From the IMG/VR virus record IMGVR_UViG_3300009184_000033, positions 68,045 to 132,044 of that record: a DNA stretch of 64,000 nucleotides; one strand, given 5' to 3'. Of the stretch, positions 6,501 to 52,467 are shown one piece after another; the stretch's first letter is position 1; each line of letters opens with the position of its first letter. The notes beneath the pieces are model-generated. The model did no database searches. It was not told the DNA's origin and saw nothing but the letters and a program-made list of their open reading frames with translations. The position numbers and the translations under genes are program-made. This DNA comes from a virus.

Positions 6501-6533
6501 CACACTTCCAGAGATTGTTCCTATTAGCGCCAT
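3516..6533 (-). CDS. Tail fibre-like structural protein (1005 aa)
   Basis: G/S/T-rich; repeated GDL(A/S)VNGGDIT; C-terminal fibre-tip-like domain (INWANGTTPAGTAGKQDVFGFSLIRSGSTW). Confidence 0.7.
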   Translation of the reverse strand: MALIGTISGSVSSGALTSTTAVSGTLIIADAAPSSFPTLASGVKLFVSGNKTQLGADTPNAIFGGDTFVSGAFGTDSYFQMKPVNTLRIPTNTTASYIYTSGSTNDLYFTQYSGPYTNTTRLRWLEGMLTTGLLHGGVLSTATGSTTFSITSGSGIILSYNATLTTDPYPTINFVQWPAYVSQSLTYVTSSLTTYIGINSTGGIIQQTSPFTLTTDSDYITIGRVLHQSGSVTNGVSTQPIVSYGNNHWQDDFMRAFGPLKVSGHILAASGSTLGITKTAGDSYVIGKNYTTDPNNPNNISSATDTAVTVSKIYRAYVSGSTLRLDTGVNNAGYTTINPAQYNNNGTLASVGASDASIQRVYWYPNTVSRAFTVYYGSDVYANPPGGTNALDVAQQSIASENFVEGENTAGAAILVGYILALGNATNLSNTAQARFIQAGVSRGAGAGGGGGVAVGATSAAGLDTYVQFNDGGSTFGGDAGLTYDKTTDTLTIAGDLAVNGGDITTSAGTFNLVNSTATTVNLGGGASAVNIGAAGSATTFAGNVTGSNALLSGDLSVNGGDITTTAATFNLVTGSATTVNFARAATTLVAGASGGSTTFQGNITGSNALLSGDLAVNGGDITSTSSTFNLVTGSVATLNIGGSATAITIGSGSSNSVMTLNGVITASSGKIALTNAAGSLISFPVGGGALGAPTFTNSSIGTRLLLYPSIGASSADWAIGMENQAMWFGVNVATTTPRFKWYAGTTEIASLRGDGLFTVTGSLATSTGNIIGAPGTGNNVMTLISSGNIIAKIDTDNSAEGHKFAVRDWRDIDQFSVGENGNAELSGSLVVSGSSIQTVTTTTYNLLTTALTGTLNFGTLASSILVGGTMATSSFTGAIQVDGRTTLSSITEKMVPSVGGTGTVAYDLSLASIFYANAPTGDITANFTNVPTTNNRIITPTVILSQSATARIVSAVQIDTAVQTINWANGTTPAGTAGKQDVFGFSLIRSGSTWKVLGQMSTYG

Positions 6534-6549
6534 GTGCTTACCTCAGATG

Positions 6550-6556
6550 TAAATAT
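6550..6556 (-). promoter_or_regulatory. ATANTTA late-promoter-like motif (ATATTTA)
   Basis: 16 nt upstream of ATG 6533. Confidence 0.55.
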
Positions 6557-6584
6557 CGCCTCCACCCGGAAGTGGAGGCGATAT
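6553..6584 (-). terminator. Perfect 13-bp stem hairpin between fibre genes
   Basis: atatcgcctccac-ccggaa-gtggaggcgatat; weak U-tract. Confidence 0.55.
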
Positions 6585-6616
6585 GCTCCACTGGGAGCTA
6601 GCTCTTGACTAGATTA

Positions 6617-9226
6617 TCACAGTTCCTGGAGTACGAACTTGTAGCGCTTGCCGCTGATGTTGTTCGTGATCGAGAGGTATTCCTCTTCCTCGATGATGGT
6701 CCAGTTGCCGCGATCGTTGCGGAGGTGCAAGTCTCCGGTGTAGACGTTGGCCCATCGCCTCTGCGGCGAACCGAGGCTCGCTCCTGAGTCTGAGCTCGGG
6801 AAGAGTCCAGTGATTCCATCCACCGTCTGACCGGCCACCGCAAAGGCCGCTCCATCCTTCTTGAAGGTGACGCCAGAAAGAACACTGGCATTGAGCTCAA
6901 CCGCACTTCCACTCATTATAAGAGTCGTTGTTCCAAGTCCAGAGGCCAGAGTAACGCTCTGGCTTGCTGATCCAGACAGTGTTGTCGTTGTACCGGCTGC
7001 ATTGATGTGAAGCTCTGGAGATCCTCCATCTTTCTGGAAGACGAATCCACCTGAACCAGCGTTTGCTACAACTGTGCTGCCGCTGAGAGTAAGAGTGGTT
7101 GCACCAGTTCCTGAACCAAGAGTGACGTTGGCGCTAGTGCCACCGAGTATATTGGCATTGTTGCTCGAGTTCTGGACCGTGAGGAACGTTGTGTTGGAGC
7201 TGTTCTTGTATAGGACCTCGTCGCCAGCAGGCTTCAGGATGATGTCCTGCAGCGCGCTGAACAGTGAGTCTCCAGGGCCATCTGACAAGATCGTAAGGTG
7301 GTCTCCATCAGCGCCTTCCTTCCTGAATGTGTAACCATTGGTTCCGTGTATCGAGCGAATGCCATTTGCGCCGCTGAGCGAGAGAAGAACTCCGCTCTCA
7401 GTTCCTAGCGTCAGAGTGTTTGCTCCATACGTCATCGAACCGCGGTTAGTACCGACAAACCTGTACTCGATGCCCTGAGTGTTGGCACCAAGCACGAGGG
7501 ATGATCCAGTCAGGACCAGCTGCCTTGCGGTTCCAACTCCACCTGCGCCTGGACTCTGCGCGGTTAGGGTGAGGCTCGTGTTTGCAGCGCCGGTGAATCT
7601 TCCGACCTCGATGCCACCGCTGTACATCTTCAAGGCCTGGTTGCCGCCGCTTCCATGTCCAATGTTGACGCTGGTGCCTGAGAGCCAGAGGCTTCCAAGG
7701 CTTGTGCCGTTCATGCCCTTGATCTCGCCCTCTCCTGTACCGGCGATGTCTCCGAACTGGATCCTGGTCGTACCGTTCTGCGAGAATGAAGCCGTTGCAG
7801 AGGTGGCCACCGCTAGATTTACTGACTGGCCGTCAGAAGATGATAGGAATACGTTGATTCCACCGCCAAGCTCGAACTTTCCAGCCCTCAGGTTAGAGTA
7901 GTCAGTTACGGTGATTGGTGAACCAGTTGCAGTGCCTGAAGTGGTCCTGATCGCCGCAAACCCACCCTCAGATTGATCCCAGATGAATGCCGCGTTGTTG
8001 ACTCCGTTGAGTCCACCGATGAATCCTCTGTCTCCGACCGACACCGCCGTCGAGCCGCTGGTGAATCCGAGCCCGATGACTGGATCTTCCATCTCAATCG
8101 TGGTCGCGTCGACCGTTAGCGTGGTTCCCTGGATTGTGAGGTCACCAGGGATGATAACGTTGCCACCCGAGAGCGTGATTGCAGTGGCGCCAGTGCTGGA
8201 CTTGATGTCGTTGCCTGTGACCGTGAGGTCGCCTGCGACTGTGACATCACCGCTTGCTCCAAGCGTGAGGTTTAGGCCTGCTGAACCTGAGATGTAGTTG
8301 CTGTTGACCTGGAGGTCTCCAGCCGTCGTGACCTTTGTGCCGGCAAGAGTGATTGCAGTTGTTCCACCGGAGGACTTTATGTCGTTTCCTGTGACCGTGA
8401 GATCACCAGTTACTGCAACGTCTCCTGTTCCAGAGAACGTGATGGCGGTGGTTCCACCGTTCATCTTAATGTCATTACCACCGACAGTGATGTCACCGCT
8501 CAGTGTAACGTCGCCAACCAGATTCGAAGTTCCTGCAATAGTGAGATTTCCACCAGCCTGGAGGTTGCTGGAACCGCTGATTGCGCCGCCTCTTGTGAGG
8601 TCTACCGCAGTAGAACCATCTGTTGCTACGATGCGTACAAAGGAGCCAGAGGCAATGACAGGACCACCGAATAGAGATACCTTGTTGTTTGCACCACCGG
8701 CGTTGCTGCCTGAGACGAAGAAGAATACATCGGCGCCATTGGCATCTGCGGTGGCCGCAGTTCCAATTGCAATGGAGCTTGTGGTGTATGCCTCTGAAGC
8801 GTTTGCGGCAGTGAAAATTGCGTCGCCGCCACCACCACCTGAAGCTAGCTCTGAAAGCGTCTTACCAGAGGTGTTGTTGCCGTCGAAGAACTTGAGGTCT
8901 GATCCAACGAGAGAGACCCTGTTTGCCGCAGTTCCGAACTGTACGTGACCTGTGCTTCCAATTCGAATGTCATTTGACGTGACCACGATCGAGCCTGAGC
9001 CGACCGTGAGGGCGCCTGAGACCACCATGTCGCCGCCAAATACGGCAACGTTACGTGTAGCACCGCCCTTACCGCCAACTGAGCCAGAGACAAAGAACTG
9101 AACATCAGCTCCAGGTAGGCTTGATGGGAAAGATCCAGCTGGATTGTTTGAGAAGATTACTGAACCGGTGACGCCAATCAGTGAGTTGGCGCTCGATGAA
9201 CCTGATATGTTGCCGACTAAAGCCAT
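6617..9226 (-). CDS. Tail fibre-like structural protein (869 aa)
   Basis: GDLTVTGNDIKSS repeats; C-terminal RWANVYTGDLHLRNDRGNWTIIEEEEYL domain. Confidence 0.7.
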   Translation of the reverse strand: MALVGNISGSSSANSLIGVTGSVIFSNNPAGSFPSSLPGADVQFFVSGSVGGKGGATRNVAVFGGDMVVSGALTVGSGSIVVTSNDIRIGSTGHVQFGTAANRVSLVGSDLKFFDGNNTSGKTLSELASGGGGGDAIFTAANASEAYTTSSIAIGTAATADANGADVFFFVSGSNAGGANNKVSLFGGPVIASGSFVRIVATDGSTAVDLTRGGAISGSSNLQAGGNLTIAGTSNLVGDVTLSGDITVGGNDIKMNGGTTAITFSGTGDVAVTGDLTVTGNDIKSSGGTTAITLAGTKVTTAGDLQVNSNYISGSAGLNLTLGASGDVTVAGDLTVTGNDIKSSTGATAITLSGGNVIIPGDLTIQGTTLTVDATTIEMEDPVIGLGFTSGSTAVSVGDRGFIGGLNGVNNAAFIWDQSEGGFAAIRTTSGTATGSPITVTDYSNLRAGKFELGGGINVFLSSSDGQSVNLAVATSATASFSQNGTTRIQFGDIAGTGEGEIKGMNGTSLGSLWLSGTSVNIGHGSGGNQALKMYSGGIEVGRFTGAANTSLTLTAQSPGAGGVGTARQLVLTGSSLVLGANTQGIEYRFVGTNRGSMTYGANTLTLGTESGVLLSLSGANGIRSIHGTNGYTFRKEGADGDHLTILSDGPGDSLFSALQDIILKPAGDEVLYKNSSNTTFLTVQNSSNNANILGGTSANVTLGSGTGATTLTLSGSTVVANAGSGGFVFQKDGGSPELHINAAGTTTTLSGSASQSVTLASGLGTTTLIMSGSAVELNASVLSGVTFKKDGAAFAVAGQTVDGITGLFPSSDSGASLGSPQRRWANVYTGDLHLRNDRGNWTIIEEEEYLSITNNISGKRYKFVLQEL

Positions 9227-40186: not shown

Positions 40187-41680
40187 TCAGTACCGGTACT
40201 GATTCGACTTGTAGGGACCTTCGACGTCGACTCCAATGTAGCTTGCCTGACTCTCGGTAAGCTTCGTGAGCTTTGCACCGAACTTATCGAGGTGAAGTCG
40301 GGCAACCATCTCATCGAGGTGCTTCGGAAGCGTGACCACGCTCACATTGAGATCAGGAAGCTTGATGCGATTATGACCGTAGAGCTCAGAGAACTTGTGG
40401 AGGTCGATCTGGGCGAGCACCTGATTCGTGAAACTGTTGCTCATCACAAGGCTCGGGTGACCGGTCGCGCATCCAAGATTCACGAGTCGACCCTCGGCGA
40501 GGATCAGGATCTTTCGACCCGTGTCGTCAAACTCCCACTCGTGGACGCCTGGCTTCACTTCGGTCTTAGTAACCAGCCGATCACGGCGCATGCGCTCGAG
40601 GCCTGCCATGTCGATCTCATTGTCGAAGTGGCCAATGTTACAGACGATGGCTCCGTCCTTCATCTGGGACATGTGCTCGGCGTTAATGATGTTCTTGTTC
40701 CCAGTTGCGGTCACAAAGATGTCAGTGTGCGGGAGCGCATCCTCGACCGTAGTGACCTCGAGGCCCATCATACATGCCTGGAGCGCACAGATCGGGTCAA
40801 TCTCAGTGACTGCAACTCTGGCATACTGGCCTCGGAGGCTATCTACTGAACCCTTACCCACGTCACCGTAGCCACAGACCAGGACCCGCTTGCCTGAGAC
40901 CAGCACGTCCGTAGCACGATTGATGGCATCGACGAGAGAGTGGCGGCAACCATAGAGGTTGTCGAACTTCGACTTGGTCACCGAATCGTTGACGTTGATC
41001 GCCGGGAACAAGAGGGTGCCGGCATCGCGCATCTCGTAGAGCCGGTGCACGCCAGTAGTAGTCTCTTCAGAGACACCCTTGATGTTCGCCGCCAGAGGAG
41101 TCCAGAAGTTGTTACCCTTCTCCCTGCGGACATCATGGATGAGCTGGAAGATGACGGCTTCCTCCTCCGAAGATGCAGTAGCTAGGTCTGGCAGCGTATC
41201 ATTCTTCTCGTGCTGGTAGCCGAGATGAACTAGAAGGGTCGCATCACCGCCATCATCGAGGAGGAGCGTGGGACCAGAACCATCAGGCCAGGCGAGCGCC
41301 TGAAGGGTGCACCACCAGTACTCCTCGAGGGTCTCACCAGCCCATGCAAAGACCCGGGTGCCGGTGGAAGCAATAGCTGATGCCGCGTGGTCCTGCGTCG
41401 AGAAGATGTTACAGCTCACCCACTGCACATCTGCGCCGAGGTCTTTAAGGGTCTCGATCAGCACAGCCGTCTGGATAGTCATGTGGAGTGAACCCATGAT
41501 CCGGGCGCCCTGCAGGGGCTTCTCATCCTTGAAGCGATTGCGCACGGACATGAGCCCGGGCATCTCCTTCTGGGCGAGCTCAATCTCCTTCCGACCCCAC
41601 GTCGTCGTCTTGTCAGAATTGTCCTTGACTCTGCTCTGCATGCCCGAGAAAAGCTCGAGGCCAGTATTCATGAATTTCAT
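40187..41680 (-). CDS. ahcY: S-adenosylhomocysteine hydrolase
   Basis: [61 protein letters not shown]; start taken at TAATG overlap. Confidence 0.96.
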
Positions 41681-42846
41681 TAGATCTCCAGGTAACGCTT
41701 GATTGTTGTAACCATGTCCAACTTCTCCCAAGTGAATTCGCCTCGCCCAAAGTGGCCATACGCGGCGGTGCGCTGGTATCCCGGCTTGCGCAGGTCCAGG
41801 CGCTCAATGATTCCCTTCGGCTTCAGCGGGAAGACGTCCTTGACGCAGCGAATGATCTGATCCTCGCTTACCCTGTTGGTGCCGAAAGTATCGACCATCA
41901 CGCTCACCGGTTCTGCGACGCCAATCGCATAGGAGAGCTGGACCAGCGCTCGAGAGCAGGCTCCGGAAGCGACGAGGTTCTTTGCGATGTACCGACCCAT
42001 GTAAGCCGCCGAACGGTCAACCTTGCTGGGATCCTTGCCCGAGAAGGCGCCACCGCCGTGGGCACCGTGGCCACCGTAGGTGTCGACGATGATCTTGCGA
42101 CCCGTGAGACCCGAGTCTCCCATCGGTCCGCCGATCTCAAACTTGCCCGTGGGGTTGACATAGAACTTCGTCTTGTTGTCGATCATGTCAGAGGGCAGGT
42201 ACCGCTTGATGAGACCAGAGACGACCTGCTCATAGATCTCGCCGTGGGCACGGGGCTCGTGCTGGGTAGACAGGACGACGGTATCGATGCGTGAGATCCT
42301 CGAGTCTCGGTACTCCACCGTCACCTGGGCCTTGCTGTCCGGACGGACCCAGGACCAGTCGCTGTCGGTCTTGCGGAGCTTCGAGAGGTTCCGCATCAGG
42401 TCGTGGCTCCACTGGATCGACGCCGGCATGAGCTCTGGCGTCTCAAGGACTGCGTAGCCGAACATCATGCCCTGGTCGCCAGCACCCATCTCAGAGAACA
42501 GGCCAGAGCCCTCATCGACGCCCTGCGCAATATCGGGAGACTGCTCCTCGAGGGCGACCATGACGGCGCAGGTGTTGCCGTCGAATCCCTTGTCAGAGTG
42601 GTTGAATCCGATGTCGTTGATCGTCTTCCTCACCACCTTTGCGATGTCGACCTTGACTTCAGACGGCACGGTGATCTCTCCAGCTACAACGACCAAGCCG
42701 GTCTTCACGAGGGTCTCGCAGGCCACCCTCGAGTTAGGATACTGCTGGAGGTAAGAATCCAACACAGCGTCAGAGATCTGGTCACAGATCTTATCTGGGT
42801 GCCCCTCTGATACGGACTCAGATGTAAACAGGTAGTTCTTCGGCAT
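41680..42846 (-). CDS. metK: S-adenosylmethionine synthetase
   Basis: [54 protein letters not shown]. Confidence 0.97.
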
Positions 42847-42847
42847 G

Positions 42848-43279
42848 TTACCACTCCTCCCCAAGACCGACCCAGTCCTTGTACTTCTCTTCTCCGCCGC
42901 GGGTCTTCCAGTCAGAGTCGATTGTGAGCTTCGAGCTGATTCCACCTCGAGGATTGAACACCATCACGACCCGGAGCCGGTCTGGCTCGTACGCTGCCAT
43001 GAGATCGTCGTAGACGACATTGATCAGCCGCTCATAGGAGATGATCTTCTCGCGGAACTGGTGGAGATAGTACTTCAGAGACTTGAGCTCCACCACCTTG
43101 GAATTCGGATAGATGGTGATGAAGAGGTCTGCGAAATCTGGCTGGTCCTTGACACCGAGAAACGTTACCTCGGGTGACTTGATCTTGACCTCGTAGCCCT
43201 TGCTCGAGGGATTGGGAATTGCCTTCAGGATAGAAGGGTCGCTCCAGACTCTTGACAATTGTCCTCCTTGATTTGACAC
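42848..43279 (-). CDS. QueF-like T-fold protein lacking the catalytic Cys
   Basis: [35 protein letters not shown]; protein contains no Cys. Confidence 0.85.
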
Positions 43280-43976: not shown

Positions 43977-44465
43977 ATGGATACACCAGCAGAGATAGTA
44001 AATCACGAAATTGCAACACCGGCGATTGGGCCTGAGGCACCGCCAGAAATGATTGCTGCACAGCCAGCGGTCGAAACTACCGAAATAGTCGAAGCGCCTG
44101 TTACGACTGGAGCGAAAGTTTATCCAAGCCTGTATGACACTATTCCGACAACAATTGCGGCGATCGCGATCGGTATTGGAATCATCGGCGGAATCCAGTG
44201 GACGGTAAGGAAGATCTTCTCTTCGGAAAAGATGGAGCACAAGGCGCTCACGCAGTTCGTAACTGCGATGTTCGCCCTTATTGTTGGCGTCTGGATAGCA
44301 GACAAGCTCATTGCAGGTCCCTCTACCGAACTGCTTCTTCCTGAAGAAAGCACACAACTGCTTACGTTCATCAAGGACATCACGCTCATGGTGTTCAGCT
44401 ACTACTTTGGCACTAAGGCACAGGTTCCTTCTGACGTTGTCGAGAGCGAGGTGATCGATGGCTGA
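43977..44465 (+). CDS. Multi-pass membrane protein, holin-like
   Basis: Three hydrophobic helices, VFSYYFGT C-terminal motif. Confidence 0.55.
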   Translation: MDTPAEIVNHEIATPAIGPEAPPEMIAAQPAVETTEIVEAPVTTGAKVYPSLYDTIPTTIAAIAIGIGIIGGIQWTVRKIFSSEKMEHKALTQFVTAMFALIVGVWIADKLIAGPSTELLLPEESTQLLTFIKDITLMVFSYYFGTKAQVPSDVVESEVIDG

Positions 44466-44928
44466 TCCATTAGCACAGATCCTGGAAGCATCAGGCGGTG
44501 GAAATGTCTGGGCAGTGCTTGGACTTGCGGTCTCCGGTGGTCTAGGCAAGTACGCCTGGGACTTCTACAAGAAGAAGGCAGACCTCAATTTCAAGGCCAA
44601 CGACAATGTCCGTAAGGACGTCAAGGAAGAGAAGCTCCTCGATCGCAAGGAACGGAACGAGTTCAAAGACGACCTGAAGGAGCGCGTCGCCGCTCTTGAA
44701 GTGAAGCTCGAGGCGGCTGTGAAGGCAAAGGAGGACCTCCTCGAGCAGGTTGGTGAGCTTCGCGCAAAGCTGGCCAAGATTGAGACAAAGCTCGAGATCC
44801 TCCTTGCAGGTGGAAAGGTAGCACCAGAGCCACCAGCTCCAGAGCCTCCGCCAAAGAAGACTGCTGCAAAGGCAAATCCGGCATCAAAGCCAGCGGCAAA
44901 GGCCGCAAAGCCAAAGAAGAATGCCTGA
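44458..44928 (+). CDS. N-terminal TM + coiled-coil protein
   Basis: WAVLGLAVSGGLG then long coiled coil, P/K/A tail. Confidence 0.65.
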   Translation: MADPLAQILEASGGGNVWAVLGLAVSGGLGKYAWDFYKKKADLNFKANDNVRKDVKEEKLLDRKERNEFKDDLKERVAALEVKLEAAVKAKEDLLEQVGELRAKLAKIETKLEILLAGGKVAPEPPAPEPPPKKTAAKANPASKPAAKAAKPKKNA

Positions 44929-45559
44929 CTGCACAATCAAGTCTGGGGAAATTGTCAGCCTCGAAGACCTGAGGCTGAATGACCCCAACTGCACAATCGA
45001 GGCTGGGGTCATAATCAGGCCACCTTTAGCTCCAGAAGTTGAGTCTGTCGATAAGAAGGCAGAAACAAAGCCTGCCAAAGTCAAGAAACAGGCAGAAATC
45101 AAAAAGACAGAAGCAAAGCCTGAAGAAGTTGTTGCAAATGTAGAGGCGCCGAAAGTGGCGCCACAGAAGAAAGTGGTCACCAAAGAGGTGATCGAAGTGC
45201 CGCAGCCTGTCATCAACAATGGGCTGTCTTCAAGTGAAATTGCTGCCGGTGCGGCGGTGCTTGGTGTTGCCGCCATAGGTGCCGCAGCGGCAACTTCTGC
45301 CGCAGGAGGAATTTCATCGATACAAGCCAAGATCGCATCGATGTTCGGCTCTAAGGGCGCAATTGCTGGCGCGGCAGCGGTAACCGCTGGTACGATCGTG
45401 GCAGTCAAGGCACTGGAATCAAAGATGGGCAAGCTTGAGCAGGATATGTCAAAAATGAAAGAGGAGGTCGGTGGTGCCGCCTCCTCTATCGATAAGATTG
45501 ACGAGCTACTTGACCGGCTCAGCAGAGACGGTAACGACAAACTCGACCCGCCTGTTTAG
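44921..45559 (+). CDS. Membrane protein with K/E linker, Ala/Gly TM and coiled coil
   Basis: Coupled to previous gene; overlaps convergent 45506..49288 by 54 nt. Confidence 0.6.
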   Translation: MPDCTIKSGEIVSLEDLRLNDPNCTIEAGVIIRPPLAPEVESVDKKAETKPAKVKKQAEIKKTEAKPEEVVANVEAPKVAPQKKVVTKEVIEVPQPVINNGLSSSEIAAGAAVLGVAAIGAAAATSAAGGISSIQAKIASMFGSKGAIAGAAAVTAGTIVAVKALESKMGKLEQDMSKMKEEVGGAASSIDKIDELLDRLSRDGNDKLDPPV

Positions 45560-48500
45560 GGCCTTGCCAGCTGGCGTTCCAGAGGAATCGATCGGAGACT
45601 CATCACCCTTGCCCTCGATCGAGATCCTCTCGGTCGAGATTCCTTTTCCAGCGAGATAGTCGGCGGCAACCTTTGCCCTCTCGTATGAGAGCTCGTCAGG
45701 ATGCTTGTACTCAATCTCAGAGGAATCAGCATAACCAACTACCTTGACTCCAAATCCAGGTCGAGAGTTCAAGATAACCCAAACGCCATCGAGTGTTGCT
45801 TGTCCCCTGGCGTTCAGCTTGGAATCTCCAGCCTTGAAACCTATGCCGATCTCTTGCTTCGGAGCCGTGACCGCGTCTGGCGCAGCTGGAACAACTATCA
45901 CTATCGGCTGCTCGTACACGGTGACTGACTTGCAGTCGCATGCTGGAGCTGGTGGGGGTATGACCAGAGCTGGGGCTGGAATTACTTCAGGTTTATCATC
46001 AGAGCCAAAGGTCAACTGAGCTGATAGTTGCCAGTCGGGGTCTCCTGGCTGGCGGATGATTCCCTTGCTTCCCGCGACTCCCACGGAGAAGTTTCCTATT
46101 GTCCAGTCGAGTGATGTCCCCACAAAGAGCGAGGAAACTGGTCTCTCACCGATGTTGTAGTAGGCTTGCGTATCGACGCCAACCGTGAAGTTACCAAGAC
46201 CGTAGGCAGCTAGAGCGTTAAGGTAAGGACCGTCTCCGAGCTCGTAACCCTCGAGATCAATTTCTGGGTAAACAAGGTAACCACCACCAGCTGTAAAGCT
46301 TAGATCCCCGACCTGTCCCTCGGCACCGGCCTCGACCTGCATCACTGTGTTCGGGTGCGCGACCCCGAGCCCAACGCCAGTGGGAACAACGACCGCGAGA
46401 TCGCCGTAAGCTCCCCAGCCGTCCTCTCCGAATGCCTTTGTATATCCACGAGCTCCACCCCAGGCGTCTCCGATTCTTGGTACACCATCCTGCATAATAG
46501 ATCCCGGGAGACCCACATCGAAGGAGAAGTGATCGAAAGTGTACCTATTTGTCGTCCAGCCCCAGAAGGTGTCACCGATGACGACCGTCTCAGTGCCGTC
46601 TGGATTCACATAGGAGAGCGGGTCAGTAACGATACCGCCGACCACTGCCGATTCCTCACCCTTGAATACCGAGGCTCCCCTCGGAGGAAGAGGAACCACG
46701 CTCATCTCTGGGACCTCACCGCCTGAAGCGCCCATCAATAGTGGAGTACCCAGGATAGCAGCCATGAGACCGAGGCCACGTCGCCTCACCGAGGCGAGGA
46801 GGGCAGCTCCAAGCAAGATGATTCCACCTGATGGTCCACCACCTGTCGTTGAGCATCCGCCAGGAACGTACTTACCCACAGCTGGCTTGACTGGATCTTC
46901 TACGGGGTCTGTGTCGGTATCAACTGCTGTGTCGATGCCTGAATCAATCCCCGAGTCTATTCCGGAATCGATCCCTGAGTCGATGGCAGTATCGACTGCT
47001 GTGTCACCAGTATCTACTGGTCTGTCGTCCACTGGGTCGCATGCGTCTCCGATTCCGTCACCGTCAATATCCGTCTGATCATTAGGCTCACCGAAGCAGT
47101 TGTCGCTGTCGTCGGCGTATGTGTCACCGTCAGCATCAGAGTCACAGAAATCTCCAATACCGTCGTGATCGAAGTCTAGCTGCTCGTCGTTCGGATAGTC
47201 AGGGCAGTTGTCGGCAAGTCCGCAGACTCCGTCAGAATCGACATCGTTCGATGGATCTCCGAGGCAAGTGTCCGATCCATCGCAGACTCCATCACCATCG
47301 GCGTCGTTGAACGGATCGTATGGGCATGGGTCTATGTCAGCGCACTTGTCGTCAGAGTCGACGTCATCTTCCGGATCAAGGGGGCATGCGTCGCATCCGT
47401 CAGGGACAGTGTCGAGGTCAGAGTCGACAAGGTCATCAGAGCCTGCGCAGATGTCGATATCTCCACAGACTCCGTCCGCGTCCGAATCATTCTCAGCATC
47501 AGCTGGGCAGATGTCGACGTCTCCACAGTTTCCGTCCTCATCAGCATCGTTCATGGGATCAAGCGGGCAAGTGTCTGCCGATTCGCAGAGTCCATCGCTG
47601 TCACGGTCATCGAGCGCGTCCGATGGACAGGCGTCGACGTCTCCGCACACCCCATCATCATCTGCATCGTTCAGCTCATCGAGCGGACAGGCATCACAGT
47701 CATCAGAAAGACCATCAGAGTCTACGTCCGCGACGTCGTCGAAGCCAGGGCAGATGTCTGCAGAGTCGCAGGAGCCGTCTCCATCAGAGTCATCTGCTGA
47801 GTCGGTCGGGCAGGTGTCGCATCCGTTCGGAACAGAGTCGCCGTCGACGTCAAGCAGGTCATCGGCGCCTGGGCAAATGTCGTCCGAATCACAAGAACCG
47901 TCAGCGTCAGAGTCATCAAGGGCGTCGAATGGACAGGTGTCACAACCATCTGGGACAAAGTCCAAGTCGGTGTCCATCAGGTCATCAGACCCAGGACAGG
48001 CCTCGTTGTTTCCGCAGACAGTGTCCTCATCCTCATCGTCGAGAGGATCGTAGATGCAGATATCACATCCGTCTGGAGTTCCATCTGAGTCAGAGTCTAC
48101 GATATCGCTAAACCCTGGGCATGTGTCGAAGTCACCGCAGATTCCATCTAGGTCTTCGTCATCGAGAGGATCATTAGGGCAAACATCGCATCCGTCAGGG
48201 GTAAGATCTGAATCTGCGTCAGCAAGGTCATCGTATCCAGGGCAAATGTCGGTATCGCCACAGATACCATCAGCATCCGCATCGTTTTCAGGATCGGTCG
48301 GGCAAGTGTCCTCAGTGTCAGGTATGCCGTCAGAATCTGCATCTGGAATCACGGGTGCCTCGGCACATTCCGTCGCAGCGGTGATCGCAGAGTCATCAAG
48401 TGCATAGACAACCCTGAATGTCTCAGACTGTCCAGGTATCATATCACCTATGCGGACTGCAAGAGAGATTGCCTGATCTGCGGTGGTTGTGGATCCAACT

Positions 48501-49288
48501 GATGAGTTTAGTCCTGAGCCGTTCCAGATATTGGAACCGTCTGTGTTGCTGAATCCGCCGTGCGTGACCTTTGCGCGTGAGTCAGAGGCAAGAAGGTAGA
48601 GGTCAGACCCATCGCCTCCCGTGGCCTTCACCTCAGCGAGATCAGTTGAGGCATTTGGCTGGGAGATGATGGTGTTGGTCGTGCTGTAACCGTAACCAGT
48701 CATCACAGCGTTGTCAGGATCTACGTTCCTGAACCAGTACACGTCCGACAGGGTGCTCGATCCGTTGTTGGTGAGTGTGACGGTCATGACGATGTAGACG
48801 CCGTCATTCACAACGCCGTACTGCGTCTCAATACCAAGGTCTCCCCTGTTTCCGGTCCATGTCGCGGCCCCGCCGAGATTCCCACAGATGTCGACTTCAC
48901 AGGCAGGGTCACCGAGGCTGCCTACAATGTTCTGGCTTCCGTTGAAGTTTGTGTAGGAAGTGCCGTTGACCTCGACTCCCCATCCCTCGAGAGGCGAACC
49001 GGGAGAGAAGAAGTCACCGTAGAATGATGCCCATCCGTTGGCTTGCGGGTTCGCGACAAAACCCATCTGGCCCGTGTTGGAGCGATAGTGCCAGCCAGCA
49101 GGATACCCTCCCTCGCCAAAGGCACCTTCACTTCCAAGACCAAGCTCAACGTAGGAGTTGCGGATGAAGGCTGCGGACCCAGGATCGCTTACCTCACAGA
49201 ATCCGGAGGCGTGTGCTACTCTGGGAGCTGAAGCGAACGCTGCTAAAAGAACAGGGAATAGAATTTGATTTAGACATAGTTTGCGCAT
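45506..49288 (-). CDS. Secreted TSP3-repeat / MYXO-CTERM-like / beta-barrel / OmpA fusion protein
   Basis: Signal peptide (..VAHA); ~22 DxDxD TSP3-type repeats; DTG/DSGI linker; GGCSTTGGG..IILLGAALLASVRRR; C-terminal VVGYADS..LSYERA..GKGDESP..NRRVEF. Confidence 0.85.
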   Translation of the reverse strand: MRKLCLNQILFPVLLAAFASAPRVAHASGFCEVSDPGSAAFIRNSYVELGLGSEGAFGEGGYPAGWHYRSNTGQMGFVANPQANGWASFYGDFFSPGSPLEGWGVEVNGTSYTNFNGSQNIVGSLGDPACEVDICGNLGGAATWTGNRGDLGIETQYGVVNDGVYIVMTVTLTNNGSSTLSDVYWFRNVDPDNAVMTGYGYSTTNTIISQPNASTDLAEVKATGGDGSDLYLLASDSRAKVTHGGFSNTDGSNIWNGSGLNSSVGSTTTADQAISLAVRIGDMIPGQSETFRVVYALDDSAITAATECAEAPVIPDADSDGIPDTEDTCPTDPENDADADGICGDTDICPGYDDLADADSDLTPDGCDVCPNDPLDDEDLDGICGDFDTCPGFSDIVDSDSDGTPDGCDICIYDPLDDEDEDTVCGNNEACPGSDDLMDTDLDFVPDGCDTCPFDALDDSDADGSCDSDDICPGADDLLDVDGDSVPNGCDTCPTDSADDSDGDGSCDSADICPGFDDVADVDSDGLSDDCDACPLDELNDADDDGVCGDVDACPSDALDDRDSDGLCESADTCPLDPMNDADEDGNCGDVDICPADAENDSDADGVCGDIDICAGSDDLVDSDLDTVPDGCDACPLDPEDDVDSDDKCADIDPCPYDPFNDADGDGVCDGSDTCLGDPSNDVDSDGVCGLADNCPDYPNDEQLDFDHDGIGDFCDSDADGDTYADDSDNCFGEPNDQTDIDGDGIGDACDPVDDRPVDTGDTAVDTAIDSGIDSGIDSGIDSGIDTAVDTDTDPVEDPVKPAVGKYVPGGCSTTGGGPSGGIILLGAALLASVRRRGLGLMAAILGTPLLMGASGGEVPEMSVVPLPPRGASVFKGEESAVVGGIVTDPLSYVNPDGTETVVIGDTFWGWTTNRYTFDHFSFDVGLPGSIMQDGVPRIGDAWGGARGYTKAFGEDGWGAYGDLAVVVPTGVGLGVAHPNTVMQVEAGAEGQVGDLSFTAGGGYLVYPEIDLEGYELGDGPYLNALAAYGLGNFTVGVDTQAYYNIGERPVSSLFVGTSLDWTIGNFSVGVAGSKGIIRQPGDPDWQLSAQLTFGSDDKPEVIPAPALVIPPPAPACDCKSVTVYEQPIVIVVPAAPDAVTAPKQEIGIGFKAGDSKLNARGQATLDGVWVILNSRPGFGVKVVGYADSSEIEYKHPDELSYERAKVAADYLAGKGISTERISIEGKGDESPIDSSGTPAGKALNRRVEFVVTVSAEPVK

Positions 49289-49399: not shown

Positions 49400-49669
49400 C
49401 TATTTGATCTCGTCGACTGATTGATCCATCTCTTGATTCCAATTTGTCCTGAGCTGGATGAGCGGATTGAAGCTCGCCTTCTTCCTCTCGAGGACTAGGG
49501 CGGACTGAGGCTTCTGGAGGATTCCCTCGATCTCAAGTTCCTCGAAATCGATCTCGGTCTTCTGCTTGTAGACGACCTTTCCATCCTCGTCCCCGTCTTC
49601 GCCCGCGTTGGCGTGGCCAGGTGCAAAAAGAAGTGCGACAAAGATTGCGATTCTGATCATTCTACTCAT
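49400..49669 (-). CDS. cglF: CglF/GltF-like adventurous gliding motility protein
   Basis: Signal peptide (..HANA) then VVYKQKTEIDFEELEIEGILQKPQSALVLERKKASFNPLIQLRTNW, matching the myxobacterial CglF pattern as I recall it; AGGAG RBS. Confidence 0.7.
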   Translation of the reverse strand: MSRMIRIAIFVALLFAPGHANAGEDGDEDGKVVYKQKTEIDFEELEIEGILQKPQSALVLERKKASFNPLIQLRTNWNQEMDQSVDEIK

Positions 49670-50001: not shown

Positions 50002-51930
50002 TCAGTACCCGTCCTGCTCTTGAGCATGCTCCAGCGCCGACTCAAGATCTTCCGCAATCCGATTTGCATCCTGCTCGTCGATGTGCTCGCAGTCCCTGAT
50101 TATCGAGATTGCTTCCCTGGTGAGAGGGATGATCATCGCGGTGGTGTAGTTGGGTCTCTCACGGGCGCTGTCTATCATGTCCATCAGCTCAAAGAGCGCG
50201 CCAAGCGCCACTGAGTCCTCTGGACAGCCGGCGTCCTCTAGATCCATCTCCGCCATCTCAAGGGCGGCAAGTAGCTCGGATGTCTGCATCTGCTCGAGGT
50301 CCCTTCCTGCGAACATCTCTCCCGCCTCGGTGAGGCTCTTGCCGCGAACTCTTGATTCGACCACGCCGCGCGGATCCAAGATCGCGAGGACGCGCCCAGT
50401 GGTGATCTTGCCACGGCTCCAGTTGTCGAAGATCTTCTTGAAGGTCTGCCTGGAGTGCGTGACGCTCTCTTCCCAGATGTCACGGTTTTCTGGTGATAGA
50501 GTTTGCTCGAGCTCGTCGAACTTGGACATCACTTTGTGCCTGAGCTTATTGAAAGCTCTTCCGGCCGGAGTCTGTATGTCACGTGCTAGATCAAAGTTAG
50601 TGTCCATGCTTGCATGCCTGTTCTGGGCGAGCTTGTAGTTCTCCCAGATCGCCTTGTACTCTGGTGTCATGTGAAGCGTGTTGAGGAACCTCTGATAGTC
50701 CTCTATCACCTCGTCGTCGCCAGCATTAATGAGCCGCTGCGCCTGGTTGGGTCCAAAGATCTCCTTGAAGATTCCGATCAGACCTGGGATGACAGACCAT
50801 GGAGAGTTGAGAAATGAGTCAATTATTCCGTACTCGCGGAGCAATTTGCCTCGAACAGTTGCCATGACCGCAGACTCACCAATGTCAAGGGTCTTTGGAT
50901 AGCCCTTCTGACCCGGCTTCTTTCTTGGTAAGCCCTTCTTCCTGCGCTGGCGGATATTGTGCCAGAGACCCTTTGGCTTCGCTTCGTTCAGTGGCTCAAG
51001 CCCAGCAAGCTTGTGCCAGCGCTCGAGGATGGGATCTTTGTCGTATCTACGACCTGAATTCTCTTGGCTCTTTGTGGTCTCTTCTTCAGCTGGCTCGAAT
51101 GACTTGTTTGGTGTAGAAGGATTTGCCTCATTGTGAGCAAACTCACCTGGACCATAAATGTGCAGTTCTGCTGGAATCTGCTTTGCCATGTTCTTTTCTA
51201 CGTCATTGGTGTTCTTACTGAGATCATCATAGAAGTGAACTTCCTCTGGCTTTTGCGCGGCTTTGTCAACAAAGTGATCTTTTATCTTCTTGCCCTTGTT
51301 TCCGCCTGAGACGCCGAAGACTCCAGAGTTTGGCTTCGCACCCTGCTTCTCCAAGAACTCTTCCATGTCTTCAGCGTTCGTGGCGGTCAGCTTGTTGCCG
51401 TGAATGTCCTCCACCTGTCCACTGGCGGTCCTGGCAGTTACAACTGCCGTCTTGGAGCCAGCCGCGTTCGCCTTCTTGAGCTTATCAATGGTGGACGAGA
51501 TTGGCTTGGTGGTATCCAGGTTTGTGCTGCTCGAGGGAGTGTAGTCTACCAACACCTCGTCTTGTCCAGAGGCTCCAGTTGGAACTCCGAATCCAGTCGC
51601 AAACTGTCTATCTGATGGTATCTGCGACTGAATCTTGGCAAGAGCAGCAGAATTCACGTAGGCGGCATATGCTCCGTCTTTTTCGGAGATCGGTACGATG
51701 CCCGGATCAAGCAGCGCATTCGTGCTGACGCCGAGGCTCTTGAGCCAACCCTCGACCTCCTGCTTAGACTTGTGGACTGGCTTTCCGTCTCGGTACAACA
51801 TTACGGCATTCGCATTTGTAGTGACGCCAAGCGTGTCGTCAAAATCGAACAAGTGAACTTGCTTCTCTGGAGGAGCGTCACCTGGTACTGCATCTTCGAA
51901 CAATAGATCGACGAGTTTCATCCGCTTCAT
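50002..51930 (-). CDS. Leader-bearing multi-segment protein with HAD phosphatase domain
   Basis: MKLVDLLFE; HLFDFDDTL, VVTAR, HFYDD; internal ILERWHKLAGL-EPLNEA, LLREY, LTEA. Confidence 0.7.
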   Translation of the reverse strand: MKRMKLVDLLFEDAVPGDAPPEKQVHLFDFDDTLGVTTNANAVMLYRDGKPVHKSKQEVEGWLKSLGVSTNALLDPGIVPISEKDGAYAAYVNSAALAKIQSQIPSDRQFATGFGVPTGASGQDEVLVDYTPSSSTNLDTTKPISSTIDKLKKANAAGSKTAVVTARTASGQVEDIHGNKLTATNAEDMEEFLEKQGAKPNSGVFGVSGGNKGKKIKDHFVDKAAQKPEEVHFYDDLSKNTNDVEKNMAKQIPAELHIYGPGEFAHNEANPSTPNKSFEPAEEETTKSQENSGRRYDKDPILERWHKLAGLEPLNEAKPKGLWHNIRQRRKKGLPRKKPGQKGYPKTLDIGESAVMATVRGKLLREYGIIDSFLNSPWSVIPGLIGIFKEIFGPNQAQRLINAGDDEVIEDYQRFLNTLHMTPEYKAIWENYKLAQNRHASMDTNFDLARDIQTPAGRAFNKLRHKVMSKFDELEQTLSPENRDIWEESVTHSRQTFKKIFDNWSRGKITTGRVLAILDPRGVVESRVRGKSLTEAGEMFAGRDLEQMQTSELLAALEMAEMDLEDAGCPEDSVALGALFELMDMIDSARERPNYTTAMIIPLTREAISIIRDCEHIDEQDANRIAEDLESALEHAQEQDGY

Positions 51931-52133
51931 CTTGTTGTACCTACCCTTCCAATTTTTCCATCTGAGAGTATCTTCTTGATATCCTTACCAAGATCGAGAA
52001 CGCCCTGCTTGAACGGCTCGATGAATACATATGCTGCCGCCACGATGGCGATGACGATCACGCTGATGAGGAGCATGTACTCGACAGTGGACTGTCCCTC
52101 GTCATCTGCAATGAGCTGCTTCAGTAGTTCCAT
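51927..52133 (-). CDS. flp: Flp/Fap (type IVb/Tad) prepilin
   Basis: MELLKQLIADDEG|QSTVEYMLLISVIVIAIVAAAY: G/Q cleavage site, E+5 Y+6, hydrophobic helix; GAGG RBS. Confidence 0.88.
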   Translation of the reverse strand: MELLKQLIADDEGQSTVEYMLLISVIVIAIVAAAYVFIEPFKQGVLDLGKDIKKILSDGKIGRVGTTR

Positions 52134-52152
52134 GTGATACCTCAGATACTTA

Positions 52153-52159
52153 TAACTAT
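52153..52159 (-). promoter_or_regulatory. ATANTTA motif
   Basis: 19 nt upstream of pilin ATG. Confidence 0.55.
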
Positions 52160-52467
52160 CAGCCTGATTTGACTGTAACGAGGTGACCTTGCTCAAAGTG
52201 CCACAGGTCTCCCCTGACAAGCACCAGCCAAATCTTGAGCTCACTGAAGGCAAACGGTCCATCCACCACGGTTCCAACGTCCTGCTCGGTGGTCCTACAG
52301 ACATCTTTAAAGAGACGCGAAATGGGATCGACTTCCCTAGTGCCATCGGCGCACAGGGTGTCGACCCCAGTCTCTATCGGCACAAACCTTACCAGGTCGC
52401 CGATCCTGATTTCTGCGCGGTGCTCTACTTCTGCTTGTTGCACGTGTCGCACAGTGTCCGGATCCAT
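52159..52467 (-). CDS. Small KOW/SH3-like protein
   Basis: IRIGDLVRF..VGTVVD..IWLVL; start uncertain. Confidence 0.5.
   Translation of the reverse strand: MDPDTVRHVQQAEVEHRAEIRIGDLVRFVPIETGVDTLCADGTREVDPISRLFKDVCRTTEQDVGTVVDGPFAFSELKIWLVLVRGDLWHFEQGHLVTVKSG

What the first reader, a model, noticed from the sequence alone, without database searches (positions are those of the whole stretch)
45506..49288. TraA/TraB-like fusion: MYXO-CTERM tag in the middle of a TSP3-OmpA protein
Seen: signal peptide, ~280-aa head, ~22 Cys/Asp TSP3 repeats, then GGCSTTGGG-hydrophobic-RRR (~46780-46865), a second signal-like hydrophobic stretch, a beta-barrel-like region and an OmpA domain, with no stop in between. 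Known: MYXO-CTERM is normally C-terminal; Myxococcus TraA (head, Cys repeats, MYXO-CTERM) and TraB (barrel, TSP3, OmpA) are adjacent genes for kin recognition and outer-membrane exchange. Inference: a single-gene TraAB-like adhesin, possibly cleaved into two products. The head is not recognisably TraA, so it may be a paralogous system.
Basis: partly seen in the sequence, partly recalled or inferred. Interest (0 to 1): 0.85.

Follow-up and report, generated by a model that had tools for sequence, protein, structure and literature searches.

The report
Phage-borne fused adhesin and membrane anchor
A large T4-like phage carries one real, conserved gene that joins a myxobacteria-style surface adhesin, still bearing its sorting tag, to an outer-membrane barrel and cell-wall anchor through a second export signal; the layout is already known from Myxococcus, and the phage setting is the new part.

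Summary
Observation confirmed. Window 45506-49288 (minus strand) is one 1260-aa ORF. In order it has:
- a signal peptide;
- a 283-aa head;
- about 20 Cys/Asp TSP3-like repeats;
- an internal MYXO-CTERM tag (TIGR03901, 23.8 bits, cut-off 20);
- RRR;
- a second signal-peptide-like segment;
- a predicted 12-strand outer-membrane barrel;
- an OmpA domain.

Fourteen orthologues (52-96% identity) keep the junction in frame, so it is not an assembly artefact. The junction's PLLMGASGG stretch is the best-conserved part of the protein.

The record is a phage: it has a T4 Gp23 capsid protein and phage replication genes.

The layout is not new. mBio 2025 (PMC11980579) describes it for MXAN_5598. Here, 8 chromosomal TraB-family proteins of the phylum that includes Lujinxingia show the same junction of tag, RRR and signal peptide.

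The phage barrel is only a remote TraB relative. NF033763 matches the OmpA part alone; hhalign gives 94% against a merged profile. The head is a galactose-mutarotase-like supersandwich, not a detectable TraA head.

Most likely the host cuts one precursor into a lipid-anchored surface adhesin and an outer-membrane/cell-wall anchor. The cleavage and the adhesive function are inferred, not shown.

This scan has already reported the same design in other phages and in Myxococcota genomes.

The parts
45506..49288 (-). Whole ORF, 1260 aa (P0001): the adhesin-tag-signal-barrel-OmpA precursor
   Evidence: Fourteen orthologues are aligned over their full length.
49208..49288 (-). N-terminal Sec signal peptide, aa 1-27 (...APRVAHA|SGFCEV)
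   Evidence: Read from the sequence. A hydrophobic N-terminus is present in all homologues, although its sequence varies (column identity 0.24).
48359..49207 (-). Head domain, aa 28-310: beta supersandwich of the galactose-mutarotase-like type. Carbohydrate binding is presumed, not shown.
   Evidence: AlphaFold model: pLDDT 74.6, pTM 0.78. VIA-align Z 15-16.4, 210-233 residues aligned, rmsd about 3.2 A, to the N-domains of GH94/GH116/GH15 enzymes; Foldseek gives the same set. No Pfam or NCBIfam hit at E<=10. Column identity 0.88.
47021..48358 (-). Stalk, aa 311-756: about 20 Cys/Asp-rich TSP3-like repeats (DxDxDG, probably calcium-binding)
   Evidence: 40 Cys, 32% Asp, 20 motifs. TSP_3 scores 24.0 bits against a cut-off of 25. 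Partial match to NF047638 MtsC, 41-42 bits.
46871..47020 (-). Asp/Thr/Ser/Gly-rich variable linker, aa 757-806
   Evidence: column identity 0.59
46775..46870 (-). Internal MYXO-CTERM tag, aa 807-838: YVPGGC(812)STTGGG motif, helix GGIILLGAALLASV, then RRRG
   Evidence: TIGR03901 23.8 bits against a cut-off of 20; TIGR03382 19.2 against 15.85. C812 is invariant; motif column identity 0.88.
46718..46774 (-). Internal signal-peptide-like segment, aa 839-857 (LGLMAAILGTPLLMGASGG). The tag's RRR serves as its n-region. Small residues sit at -3/-1 (ASG|G, GAS|G or SGG|E).
   Evidence: Hydropathy profile. The c-region P-L-L-M-G-A-S-G-G has column identity 0.97, the highest in the protein, while the h-region is variable (0.50). 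The same design recurs in four metagenome/phage groups and in bacterial TraB fusions.
46004..46696 (-). Predicted 12-strand outer-membrane beta-barrel, aa ~865-1095. The last strand, WQLSAQLTF, ends in Phe.
   Evidence: Model pLDDT is 64-80 in this part. VIA-align Z 17.4 to the COG4313 channel 4rl8, 17.3 to FapF, 15.5-17.3 to autotransporter beta-domains, with 193-222 residues aligned. Foldseek E 7e-9 to FapF. hhalign 94% against the merged TraB-type barrel profile.
45854..46003 (-). Pro-rich linker with a conserved CxC (C1117, C1119), aa 1096-1145
   Evidence: disordered in the model
45533..45853 (-). OmpA-type peptidoglycan-binding domain, aa 1146-1252
   Evidence: PF00691 49.2 bits against a cut-off of 27.2. 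Many OmpA-type NCBIfam matches.
49400..49669 (-). Neighbour, 111 nt upstream on the same strand: an exported CglF/GltF-like protein. It is context only; nothing shows that it works with the ORF.
   Evidence: NF033764 57.8 bits, E 8e-16, below the cut-off of 90. Signal peptide ...GHANA|G.

Best explanation
This is a phage-encoded envelope polyprotein.

Proposed route:
1. The N-terminal signal peptide takes the head and stalk across the inner membrane.
2. The MYXO-CTERM helix stops transfer, leaving RRR in the cytoplasm.
3. The next hydrophobic segment uses the same RRR as its n-region and restarts export. Together the two segments form a helical hairpin.
4. The host lipidates Cys812, and host myxosortase cuts off the tag helix.
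5. The host type II secretion system then puts the lipid-anchored adhesin on the cell surface. The adhesin is a sugar-binding-type supersandwich head on a calcium-stiffened TSP3-like stalk.
6. Signal peptidase I cuts after the conserved MGASGG. This frees a TraB-type 12-strand barrel that inserts into the outer membrane, while its OmpA domain holds the peptidoglycan.

The result is a 1:1 adhesin-and-anchor pair that re-dresses the surface of the infected Myxococcota-type cell, most likely to change what it sticks to.

Shown: the gene, its domains, its conservation, the phage setting and the recurrence of the junction design.
Inferred: both cleavages, lipidation, surface display, the host phylum and adhesion.
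For: The gene is real and under constraint:
- Fourteen orthologues keep the frame.
- Against the L002 orthologue dS is saturated, with dN 0.15-0.38. dN/dS is 0.07 for the head and 0.22 for the junction.

The tag passes the curated cut-offs and its Cys is invariant.

The junction behaves like a working tag plus a working signal peptide:
- The tag motif (0.88) and c-region (0.97) are conserved, while the hydrophobic cores vary (0.50-0.65).
- The same order (GC tag, helix, R/K run, hydrophobic segment, AxA-like site) occurs in four otherwise different metagenome/phage groups.
- It also occurs in 8 chromosomal TraB-family fusions.

The barrel is predicted with Z about 17 to 12-strand outer-membrane barrels. 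Only about 7-20 residues separate the second hydrophobic segment from the barrel. That is too few to cross the periplasm, so the barrel must be released.

No conserved internal start codon exists: V834 and M842 are not conserved, and no Shine-Dalgarno sequence lies in range.

Literature:
- PMC11980579 describes lipidation, MrtX cleavage and T2SS export for MYXO-CTERM proteins.
- It proposes processing of the internal tag of MXAN_5598, and states that sorting tags work in mid-protein.

Phage setting:
- Gp23, 221 bits.
- Helicase, clamp-loader-type ATPase, HNH and tail-fibre PHROG hits in the window.
- The orthologue L002 and the group C genes L006/L007 lie on IMG/VR contigs. L007 sits among phage replication genes.

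The head is used for surface display elsewhere:
- The same head family carries a C-terminal tag in L003.
- It carries a Bacteroidota-type sorting end in a 642-kb phage.
Against: - No experiment or read-level data exist for this gene.
- The C-module model has only middling confidence (mean pLDDT 61.9), built on a shallow alignment.
- No myxosortase-type (Rce1-like) protease is present in the 132-kb record. Processing therefore depends on an unknown host, and the record is only about 39% complete.
- The GASGG site is Gly/Ser-rich rather than a classic AxA.
- Homology to TraB is weak: the curated model matches only the OmpA part, and hhalign against TraB barrels alone gives 38%.
- Sugar binding by the head is inferred from the fold alone.
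- In the split relative L003 the downstream protein has no signal peptide. This model does not explain that.
Confidence: 0.58

Rival explanations
1. Outer-membrane-exchange hijack. The pair acts like TraA/TraB: it makes infected cells bind neighbours and fuse or exchange outer membrane. That would pass phage-chosen cargo or receptors to the neighbours. The CglF-like protein encoded just upstream is one possible cargo.
For: - The layout matches the combined TraA/TraB layout.
- The C-module is a remote TraB-type barrel plus OmpA domain.
- Group C and D C-modules are clearer TraB homologues (hhalign 98.5% and 91%). Group C lies on IMG/VR contigs; the setting of group D was not checked.
- A CglF-like gene lies 111 nt upstream.
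- From my own knowledge: Cgl proteins are classic cargo of TraAB-dependent transfer in M. xanthus.
Against: - The head is not a detectable TraA head, and the repeats are not the TraA type. There is no PA14 or TIGR02232 hit.
- The TraB model matches only the OmpA part.
- MXAN_5598-type fusions have no known exchange role.
- Nothing here tests homotypic binding.
Confidence: 0.12
2. Superinfection exclusion or a receptor shield. The abundant surface protein masks the phage receptor, or traps incoming or released virions. Known phage outer-membrane lipoproteins such as T5 Llp do this.
For: - It is a phage-encoded protein aimed at the cell surface, with a firm outer-membrane/cell-wall anchor.
- The heads vary between phage groups: supersandwich or H_lectin. 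That pattern fits an arms-race surface function.
- In L003 the gene pair follows the M15 peptidase gene. By my own knowledge that is a usual site for accessory 'moron' genes.
Against: - A 1260-aa adhesin with a lectin-like head is far larger than known exclusion lipoproteins.
- There is no similarity to any known exclusion family. PHROGs matches only the OmpA part, in a family of unknown function.
Confidence: 0.15
3. An uncleaved inner-membrane protein. The tag helix and the second helix stay as a hairpin anchor. Both large parts remain in the periplasm, and the OmpA domain ties the inner membrane to the cell wall, as in MotB- or TssL-type proteins.
For: - No cleavage has been shown.
- The second segment lacks a textbook AxA site.
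- The OmpA domain also matches MotB- and TssL-type models.
Against: - The all-beta region matches 12-strand outer-membrane barrels at Z about 17, and its last strand ends in Phe.
- The tag motif and Cys are invariant. A plain anchor would not need them.
- The c-region is the best-conserved stretch of the protein.
- Bacterial versions of the junction carry classic ARAQ, AQA or AVA sites.
Confidence: 0.1
4. Two proteins by internal initiation. The C-module is translated on its own from an in-frame start (GTG at V834 or ATG at M842), which would give it a normal signal peptide. The fused frame would then be incidental.
For: V834 is GTG. A product starting there would read M-RRR-hydrophobic-GASGG, a canonical signal peptide.
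Against: - Neither V834 nor M842 is conserved among orthologues (I, S, L, T, A or a gap at 834).
- The nearest GGAG/GAGG lies 17-18 nt upstream.
- Without a stop codon the full-length chain is made in any case.
Confidence: 0.04
5. An assembly or sequencing artefact has joined two genes.
For: None found. Read mapping could not be run.
Against: Fourteen orthologues from separate assemblies and sources, at 52-96% identity, share the in-frame junction.
Confidence: 0.01

Closest known systems
MXAN_5598 of Myxococcus xanthus (Discussion of mBio 2025, PMC11980579)
   Same: A large N-terminal adhesin region, an internal MYXO-CTERM tag, then an outer-membrane barrel and an OmpA domain. The authors call it like TraA plus TraB combined and propose that the N-terminal part is processed and surface-anchored.
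   Different: - MXAN_5598 is chromosomal, next to ftsA/ftsZ; this gene is in a T4-like phage.
- Its sequence was not on hand, so homology was not tested.
- An earlier scan note calls that type AgmC. The AgmC_N model NF047640 finds nothing in this phage record.
Fused TraB-family proteins found here in genomes of the phylum that includes Lujinxingia (G005: L037, L038; also L047, L052, L060, L061, L066, L069)
   Same: The junction has the same order: GC tag, helix, Arg run, signal peptide with a small-residue site, barrel, OmpA.
   Different: - Their C-modules match TraB NF033763 over nearly its full length (234 and 271 bits) and carry TSP3 repeats between the barrel and OmpA.
- One N-part carries TraA-type myxo_disulf repeats.
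- The phage protein has none of these. Its barrel is only remotely alike.
TraA/TraB outer-membrane-exchange pair of M. xanthus (PMC3325183)
   Same: A surface receptor with a Cys-rich stalk and a MYXO-CTERM tag, plus a partner with a barrel and an OmpA domain. The two ORFs overlap in Myxococcus.
   Different: - Two genes there, one gene here.
- No PA14 or TraA-repeat match was found for the phage head and stalk; the head models as a supersandwich.
- The TraB model reaches 25.7 of the 700 bits needed.
- An exchange function is not shown here.
Other metagenome and phage groups with the same junction (groups B, C and D: P0017, P0034, P0059 and relatives)
   Same: A GCST-type internal tag, basic residues, a signal peptide with AHA|E, IEA|Q or PDA|Q, then a 340-510-aa C-module. 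Group C lies on IMG/VR contigs among phage replication genes.
   Different: - The heads differ: H_lectin in C and D.
- The C and D modules are clearer TraB homologues, and their C-terminal domains show little or no OmpA-model match (Pal 16.7 bits in P0056 only).
- The genomic setting of groups B and D was not established.
Bacterial polyproteins split at an internal signal peptide, for example the FbcH cytochrome b-c1 precursor of Bradyrhizobium (my own knowledge, not checked here)
   Same: One chain, with an internal signal peptide cut by signal peptidase to give two envelope proteins.
   Different: There is no sorting tag and no outer-membrane product, and the proteins are unrelated.

Membership tests
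MYXO-CTERM sorting domain (TIGR03901 / TIGR03382) | Match to the curated model above its cut-off | tested here: met
   23.8 bits against 20 and 19.2 against 15.85 on the 55-aa piece. TIGR03901 gives 20.2 against 20 in a 532-aa context.
MYXO-CTERM sorting domain (TIGR03901 / TIGR03382) | Invariant Cys in a short motif, then a hydrophobic helix, then an Arg-rich tail | tested here: met
   C812 is invariant in the 13-sequence alignment and present in P0271. Helix at aa 821-834; RRR at aa 835-837.
MYXO-CTERM sorting domain (TIGR03901 / TIGR03382) | Lies at the C-terminus of the protein | tested here: not met
   423 residues follow the RRR. Internal cases are acknowledged as rare in PMC11980579.
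MYXO-CTERM sorting domain (TIGR03901 / TIGR03382) | Occurs together with a myxosortase (MrtX-type CPBP protease) | not testable with these tools
   The host is unknown. The 132-kb phage fragment has no Rce1-like protease.
TraB (NF033763, exchanger_TraB) | Full-length match to the curated model (cut-off 700 bits) | tested here: not met
   25.7 bits, covering model positions 428-499 only, which is the OmpA part. The bacterial fusions reach 234-271 bits over positions 21-502.
TraB (NF033763, exchanger_TraB) | N-terminal outer-membrane barrel homologous to that of TraB | tested here: inconclusive
   - hhalign 38% against TraB barrels alone.
- hhalign 94%, E 1.5e-7, over 215 columns against the merged profile of TraB and phage group C/D barrels; reversed control 3.8%.
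- TraB-like barrels hit PF13557, and the model's top structural match is the COG4313 channel 4rl8.
TraB (NF033763, exchanger_TraB) | TSP3 repeats between the barrel and the OmpA domain | tested here: not met
   A Pro-rich linker with CxC sits there instead. The repeats lie upstream of the tag.
TraB (NF033763, exchanger_TraB) | C-terminal OmpA peptidoglycan-binding domain | tested here: met
   PF00691 49.2 bits against a cut-off of 27.2.
TraA | PA14-like variable recognition domain at the N-terminus | tested here: not met
   No Pfam hit of any kind for the head at E<=10. The model is a galactose-mutarotase-like supersandwich, Z about 16.
TraA | Cys-rich repeats of the myxo_disulf type (TIGR02232) | tested here: not met
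   The repeat region returned exactly five NCBIfam families at E<=10, and TIGR02232 is not among them. The model does score 276.8 bits on the bacterial fusion L037.
MXAN_5598-type fused precursor (architecture class, PMC11980579) | Signal peptide and adhesin, internal MYXO-CTERM, outer-membrane barrel, OmpA, all in one ORF | tested here: met
MXAN_5598-type fused precursor (architecture class, PMC11980579) | Sequence homology to MXAN_5598 itself | not tested
   No M. xanthus sequence could be fetched. The AgmC_N model NF047640, which an earlier scan note links to that type, finds nothing in the phage record.
Thrombospondin type 3 repeat (PF02412) | Match above the gathering score | tested here: inconclusive
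   24.0 bits against a cut-off of 25, in 2 stretches. 20 DxDxDG-type motifs with paired Cys.

The most novel reading that the evidence does not exclude
Phages of Myxococcota-type hosts carry their own TraAB-like receptor and anchor, and use it to make the infected cell bind neighbouring host cells and exchange outer membrane with them. This gene with the CglF-like gene beside it would be one case, and the H-lectin-headed groups others. The effect would be to spread receptors or cargo, or to hold prey cells close for the phage burst. That would be viral manipulation of bacterial social contact.
Probability: 0.12. Interest if true: 0.9.

Novelty: new variant of a known kind. Interest (0 to 1): 0.55.

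Why it matters
The fused layout itself is published and common, so it adds little. Three things are worth keeping:

1. Several phage lineages carry such genes. A T4-like jumbo phage has the fused form. A small phage with a lambda-type terminase has the head gene with a C-terminal tag and an overlapping downstream ORF. Phage contigs with H-lectin heads carry another fused form. All are built to be processed by the host's own sorting machinery. This points to Myxococcota-type hosts for these uncultured phages, and to a phage interest in the host's surface and social contacts.

2. The junction follows a simple, general rule: the tag's Arg tail doubles as the n-region of a second signal peptide. 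This gives a clear, testable route from one precursor to two envelope proteins.

3. The same head also appears with a Bacteroidota-type sorting end in a 642-kb phage. Phages therefore seem to re-fit one display module to each host's export system.

Tried and rejected

Searches that found nothing useful:
It returned only repeat-level hits and not the protein's own contig.
- Viral scans with P0017 and P0015 found nothing.
- A scan of 185,579 species genomes with the head alignment found no relative.
- phmmer of the C-module against 1.84 billion representatives found the barrel only in the fused family. P0122 looked like a stand-alone form, but it comes from a 1.6-kb contig and its cluster includes the fused P0271.
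- Gp23 and Terminase_6N were not found in the four other viral fragments.

Ideas tested and dropped:
- A T4 late promoter: TATAAATA is absent from the window, and the AT-rich motif upstream of the gene does not recur. Expression timing is left open.
- An internal start codon: not conserved.
- Other MYXO-type tags in the record: none.

Not attempted:
- Complex prediction was not used. No specific contact between the two halves could be proposed, and the barrel model rests on a shallow alignment.

Full report
**What is there.** Window 45506-49288 (minus strand) is a single 1260-aa ORF with no internal stop. Its parts, in order:
- A signal peptide, aa 1-27.
- A 283-aa head with no Pfam or NCBIfam match even at E<=10.
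- A 446-aa stretch with 40 Cys, 32% Asp and 20 DxDxDG-type motifs in units of 20-21 residues. Pfam TSP_3 scores 24.0 bits, just under its cut-off of 25.
- A variable acidic linker.
- The tag GGCSTTGGGPSGGIILLGAALLASVRRR, aa 810-837.
- The segment LGLMAAILGTPLLMGASGG.
- An all-beta region, a Pro-rich linker, and an OmpA domain (PF00691, 49.2 bits).

The tag passes both curated models: TIGR03901 at 23.8 bits (cut-off 20) and TIGR03382 at 19.2 bits (cut-off 15.85).

**Not an artefact.** A search of 5.8 billion proteins returned 12 full-length homologues at 62-96% identity, from ENA, JGI, Logan and NCBI assemblies. A further fused orthologue, P0271, has a C-module 52% identical to this one. All keep the junction in frame.

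Conservation along the junction is what a working tag plus a working signal peptide should show:

| Segment | Column identity |
|---|---|
| Tag motif | 0.88 |
| Tag helix | 0.65 |
| RRRG | 0.86 |
| Second hydrophobic core | 0.50 |
| c-region P-L-L-M-G-A-S-G-G | 0.97 (highest in the protein) |

Against the orthologue on L002, synonymous sites are saturated while dN is 0.15-0.38. dN/dS is 0.07 for the head and 0.22 for the junction. Read mapping could not be done.

**Setting.**
- The window is part of a 132-kb IMG/VR virus record, estimated 39% complete.
- The record encodes a T4-type Gp23 capsid protein at 221 bits.
- The window holds PHROG matches to a phage helicase, a clamp-loader-type ATPase, an HNH endonuclease and a tail-fibre protein, and also metK and ahcY.
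- An orthologue lies on another IMG/VR contig, L002.
- The head family was not found in 185,579 species-representative genomes.
- The gene 111 nt upstream, on the same strand, is an exported CglF/GltF-like protein (NF033764, 57.8 bits, below the cut-off of 90).
- This is the only MYXO-type tag in the record, and the record has no Rce1-like protease. Any processing must therefore be done by the host.

**Folds.**
- *Head.* The model has pLDDT 74.6 and pTM 0.78. It is a galactose-mutarotase-like supersandwich. VIA-align gives Z 15-16.4, 210-233 residues aligned and rmsd about 3.2 A to the N-terminal domains of GH94, GH116 and GH15 enzymes. Foldseek agrees. No PA14 match was found, so it is not a detectable TraA head.
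- *C-module.* The model has mean pLDDT 61.9, with 64-80 in the beta region. Residues ~865-1095 form a 12-strand outer-membrane barrel. VIA-align gives Z 17.4 to the COG4313 channel 4rl8, 17.3 to FapF and 15.5-17.3 to autotransporter beta-domains. Foldseek gives E 7e-9 to FapF.
- By sequence, the barrel has no relative outside the fused family among 1.84 billion representatives.

**Known precedent.** The Discussion of mBio 2025 (PMC11980579) describes MXAN_5598 as a large adhesin, an internal MYXO-CTERM, then an outer-membrane barrel and an OmpA domain. [quoted passage not shown] It proposes that the N-terminal part is processed and surface-anchored, and notes that sorting tags work in mid-protein. 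No paper in the library links MYXO-CTERM proteins to phage genomes.

**The junction is a general design.** Among the proteins fetched, four groups carry a GC tag, a helix and a run of R/K, followed at once by a hydrophobic stretch and a small-residue site:

| Group | Heads and C-modules | Site after the second hydrophobic stretch |
|---|---|---|
| A (this family) | supersandwich head | MGASGG\|E |
| B | same head family as A, different C-module | AHA\|E |
| C | H_lectin head | IEA\|Q |
| D | H_lectin head | PDA\|Q |

Group C genes lie on IMG/VR contigs, one of them among phage replication genes. The setting of groups B and D was not established.

In a 9.3-Mb bacterial genome (G005), two chromosomal ORFs of about 1600 and 1770 aa have the same junction, with ARAQ|E and SRAQ|E sites. 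G005 belongs to the same phylum as a Lujinxingia MAG. Their C-modules match TraB NF033763 over nearly its whole length, at 234 and 271 bits. One N-part carries TraA-type myxo_disulf repeats at 276.8 bits.

In 201 sampled genomes of that phylum, 6 of the 25 best full-length TraB-family hits that I inspected are fused in frame in the same way.

**Is the phage C-module TraB-like?**
- The curated TraB model matches only its OmpA part (25.7 bits).
- Profile comparison against TraB barrels alone is weak (38%).
- Group C and D modules are clear TraB homologues (98.5% and 91%).
- A merged profile of TraB, C and D barrels matches the phage barrel at 94%, E 1.5e-7, over 215 columns. The reversed control gives 3.8%.
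- TraB-like barrels hit Pfam PF13557 (29.6 and 21.5 bits; cut-off 22). By my own knowledge, that family includes the model's best structural match, 4rl8. The Atlas look-alikes also include PF13557 clusters, which is only a lead.

I read the barrel as a remote member of the TraB-type barrel group. It is not a TraB family member.

**Mechanism.** The best reading is a helical hairpin. The tag helix stops transfer. RRR stays in the cytoplasm and also serves as the n-region of the next segment, which restarts export. Host lipidation of Cys812, myxosortase cleavage and type II secretion then display the adhesin, following the pathway in PMC11980579. Signal peptidase I releases the barrel-OmpA part for insertion into the outer membrane.

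Release is required. Only about 7-20 residues lie between the second segment and the barrel, which is too few to span the periplasm. Internal initiation is unlikely, because the candidate start codons are not conserved and no ribosome-binding site lies in range. Every processing step is inferred.

**Function.** Adhesion is the simplest reading of a lectin-type head on a stiff stalk with a firm anchor, but it is inference. Rival readings are an exchange hijack of the TraAB kind, superinfection exclusion, and an uncleaved inner-membrane tether.

**Side findings.**
- A small phage (L003; GpA-type terminase and portal) has the same head family as a separate gene ending in the tag. It sits directly after an M15 peptidase gene. 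A TGATG-overlapping 352-aa ORF follows; it weakly resembles group C modules and has no signal peptide.
- A 642-kb uncultured phage (LR756502.1) has the head at 40.6% identity, joined to Ig-like repeats. Its C-terminal motif looks like a Bacteroidota type IX sorting domain. That identification is from memory and was not checked with a model.

**Earlier scan notes.** The same design was reported before in other phages and in Myxococcota genomes. I reached the same reading from my own tests. One note names the MXAN_5598 type AgmC; the AgmC_N model finds nothing in this phage record.

**Verdict.** The gene is real and well conserved. It is a phage-borne variant of a published bacterial design. Interest is moderate and rests on the phage setting, not on the internal tag.

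Noticed in passing
L003:3510-7111 (IMGVR_UViG_3300032233_001609): A small phage with a GpA-type terminase and a portal protein carries the same head family as a separate gene (3996-6053) that ends in a GC-helix-RRR tag. The gene lies directly after an M15 peptidase gene. The next ORF (6053-7111) overlaps it by TGATG, weakly resembles group C C-modules (hhalign 88%) and has no signal peptide.
   Followed up: partly
L072:5839-8535 (LR756502.1, a 642-kb uncultured phage): The same head family (40.6% identity over 86% of the head) is joined to Ig-like repeats. The C-terminal end reads ...NAFTPNGDGNNDQ..., which looks like a Bacteroidota type IX (CHU_C/type B) sorting domain. The head therefore seems to be re-fitted to each host's export tag. 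The sorting domain was recognised from memory and not checked with a model.
   Followed up: partly
window 49400-49669 (-): An exported CglF/GltF-like protein (NF033764, 57.8 bits, E 8e-16, below the cut-off of 90) lies directly upstream of the target gene on the same strand.
   Followed up: partly
window 51927-52346 (-): The C-terminal part of this ORF reads ...EGQSTVEYMLLISVIVIAIVAAAYVF..., a Flp-type pilin motif.
   Followed up: no
window 43977-45559 (+): Three small membrane or coiled-coil proteins are encoded convergently with the target. One weakly hits phrog_2658. The last one overlaps the target's 3' end by 54 nt, and a terminator-like hairpin lies at 45614-45638 on the + strand.
   Followed up: no
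L047, L052, L060, L061, L066, L069, and L037:737-5656 and L038:694-6045 (bacterial genomes): Among 201 sampled genomes of the phylum that includes a Lujinxingia MAG, 6 of the 25 best full-length TraB-family hits inspected are fused in frame to an upstream GC-helix-RRR tag through a signal peptide. Two more such fusions lie in G005. The fused TraAB layout is therefore common, not rare.
   Followed up: partly
L007:5905-9633 (IMGVR_UViG_2788500025_000001) and proteins P0033-P0059: Proteins with H_lectin heads, internal GCST-type tags and TraB-homologous C-modules (hhalign 98.5% for group C, 91% for group D). The group C gene in L007 sits among phage SbcCD-like, methylase, exonuclease, clamp and primase genes.
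   Followed up: partly
window 40187-42945 (-): Intact metK and ahcY genes lie in the phage. In the related contig L002, ORFs of matching size lie on the other side of the adhesin gene (not tested by family search), which would mean the neighbourhood is rearranged.
   Followed up: no
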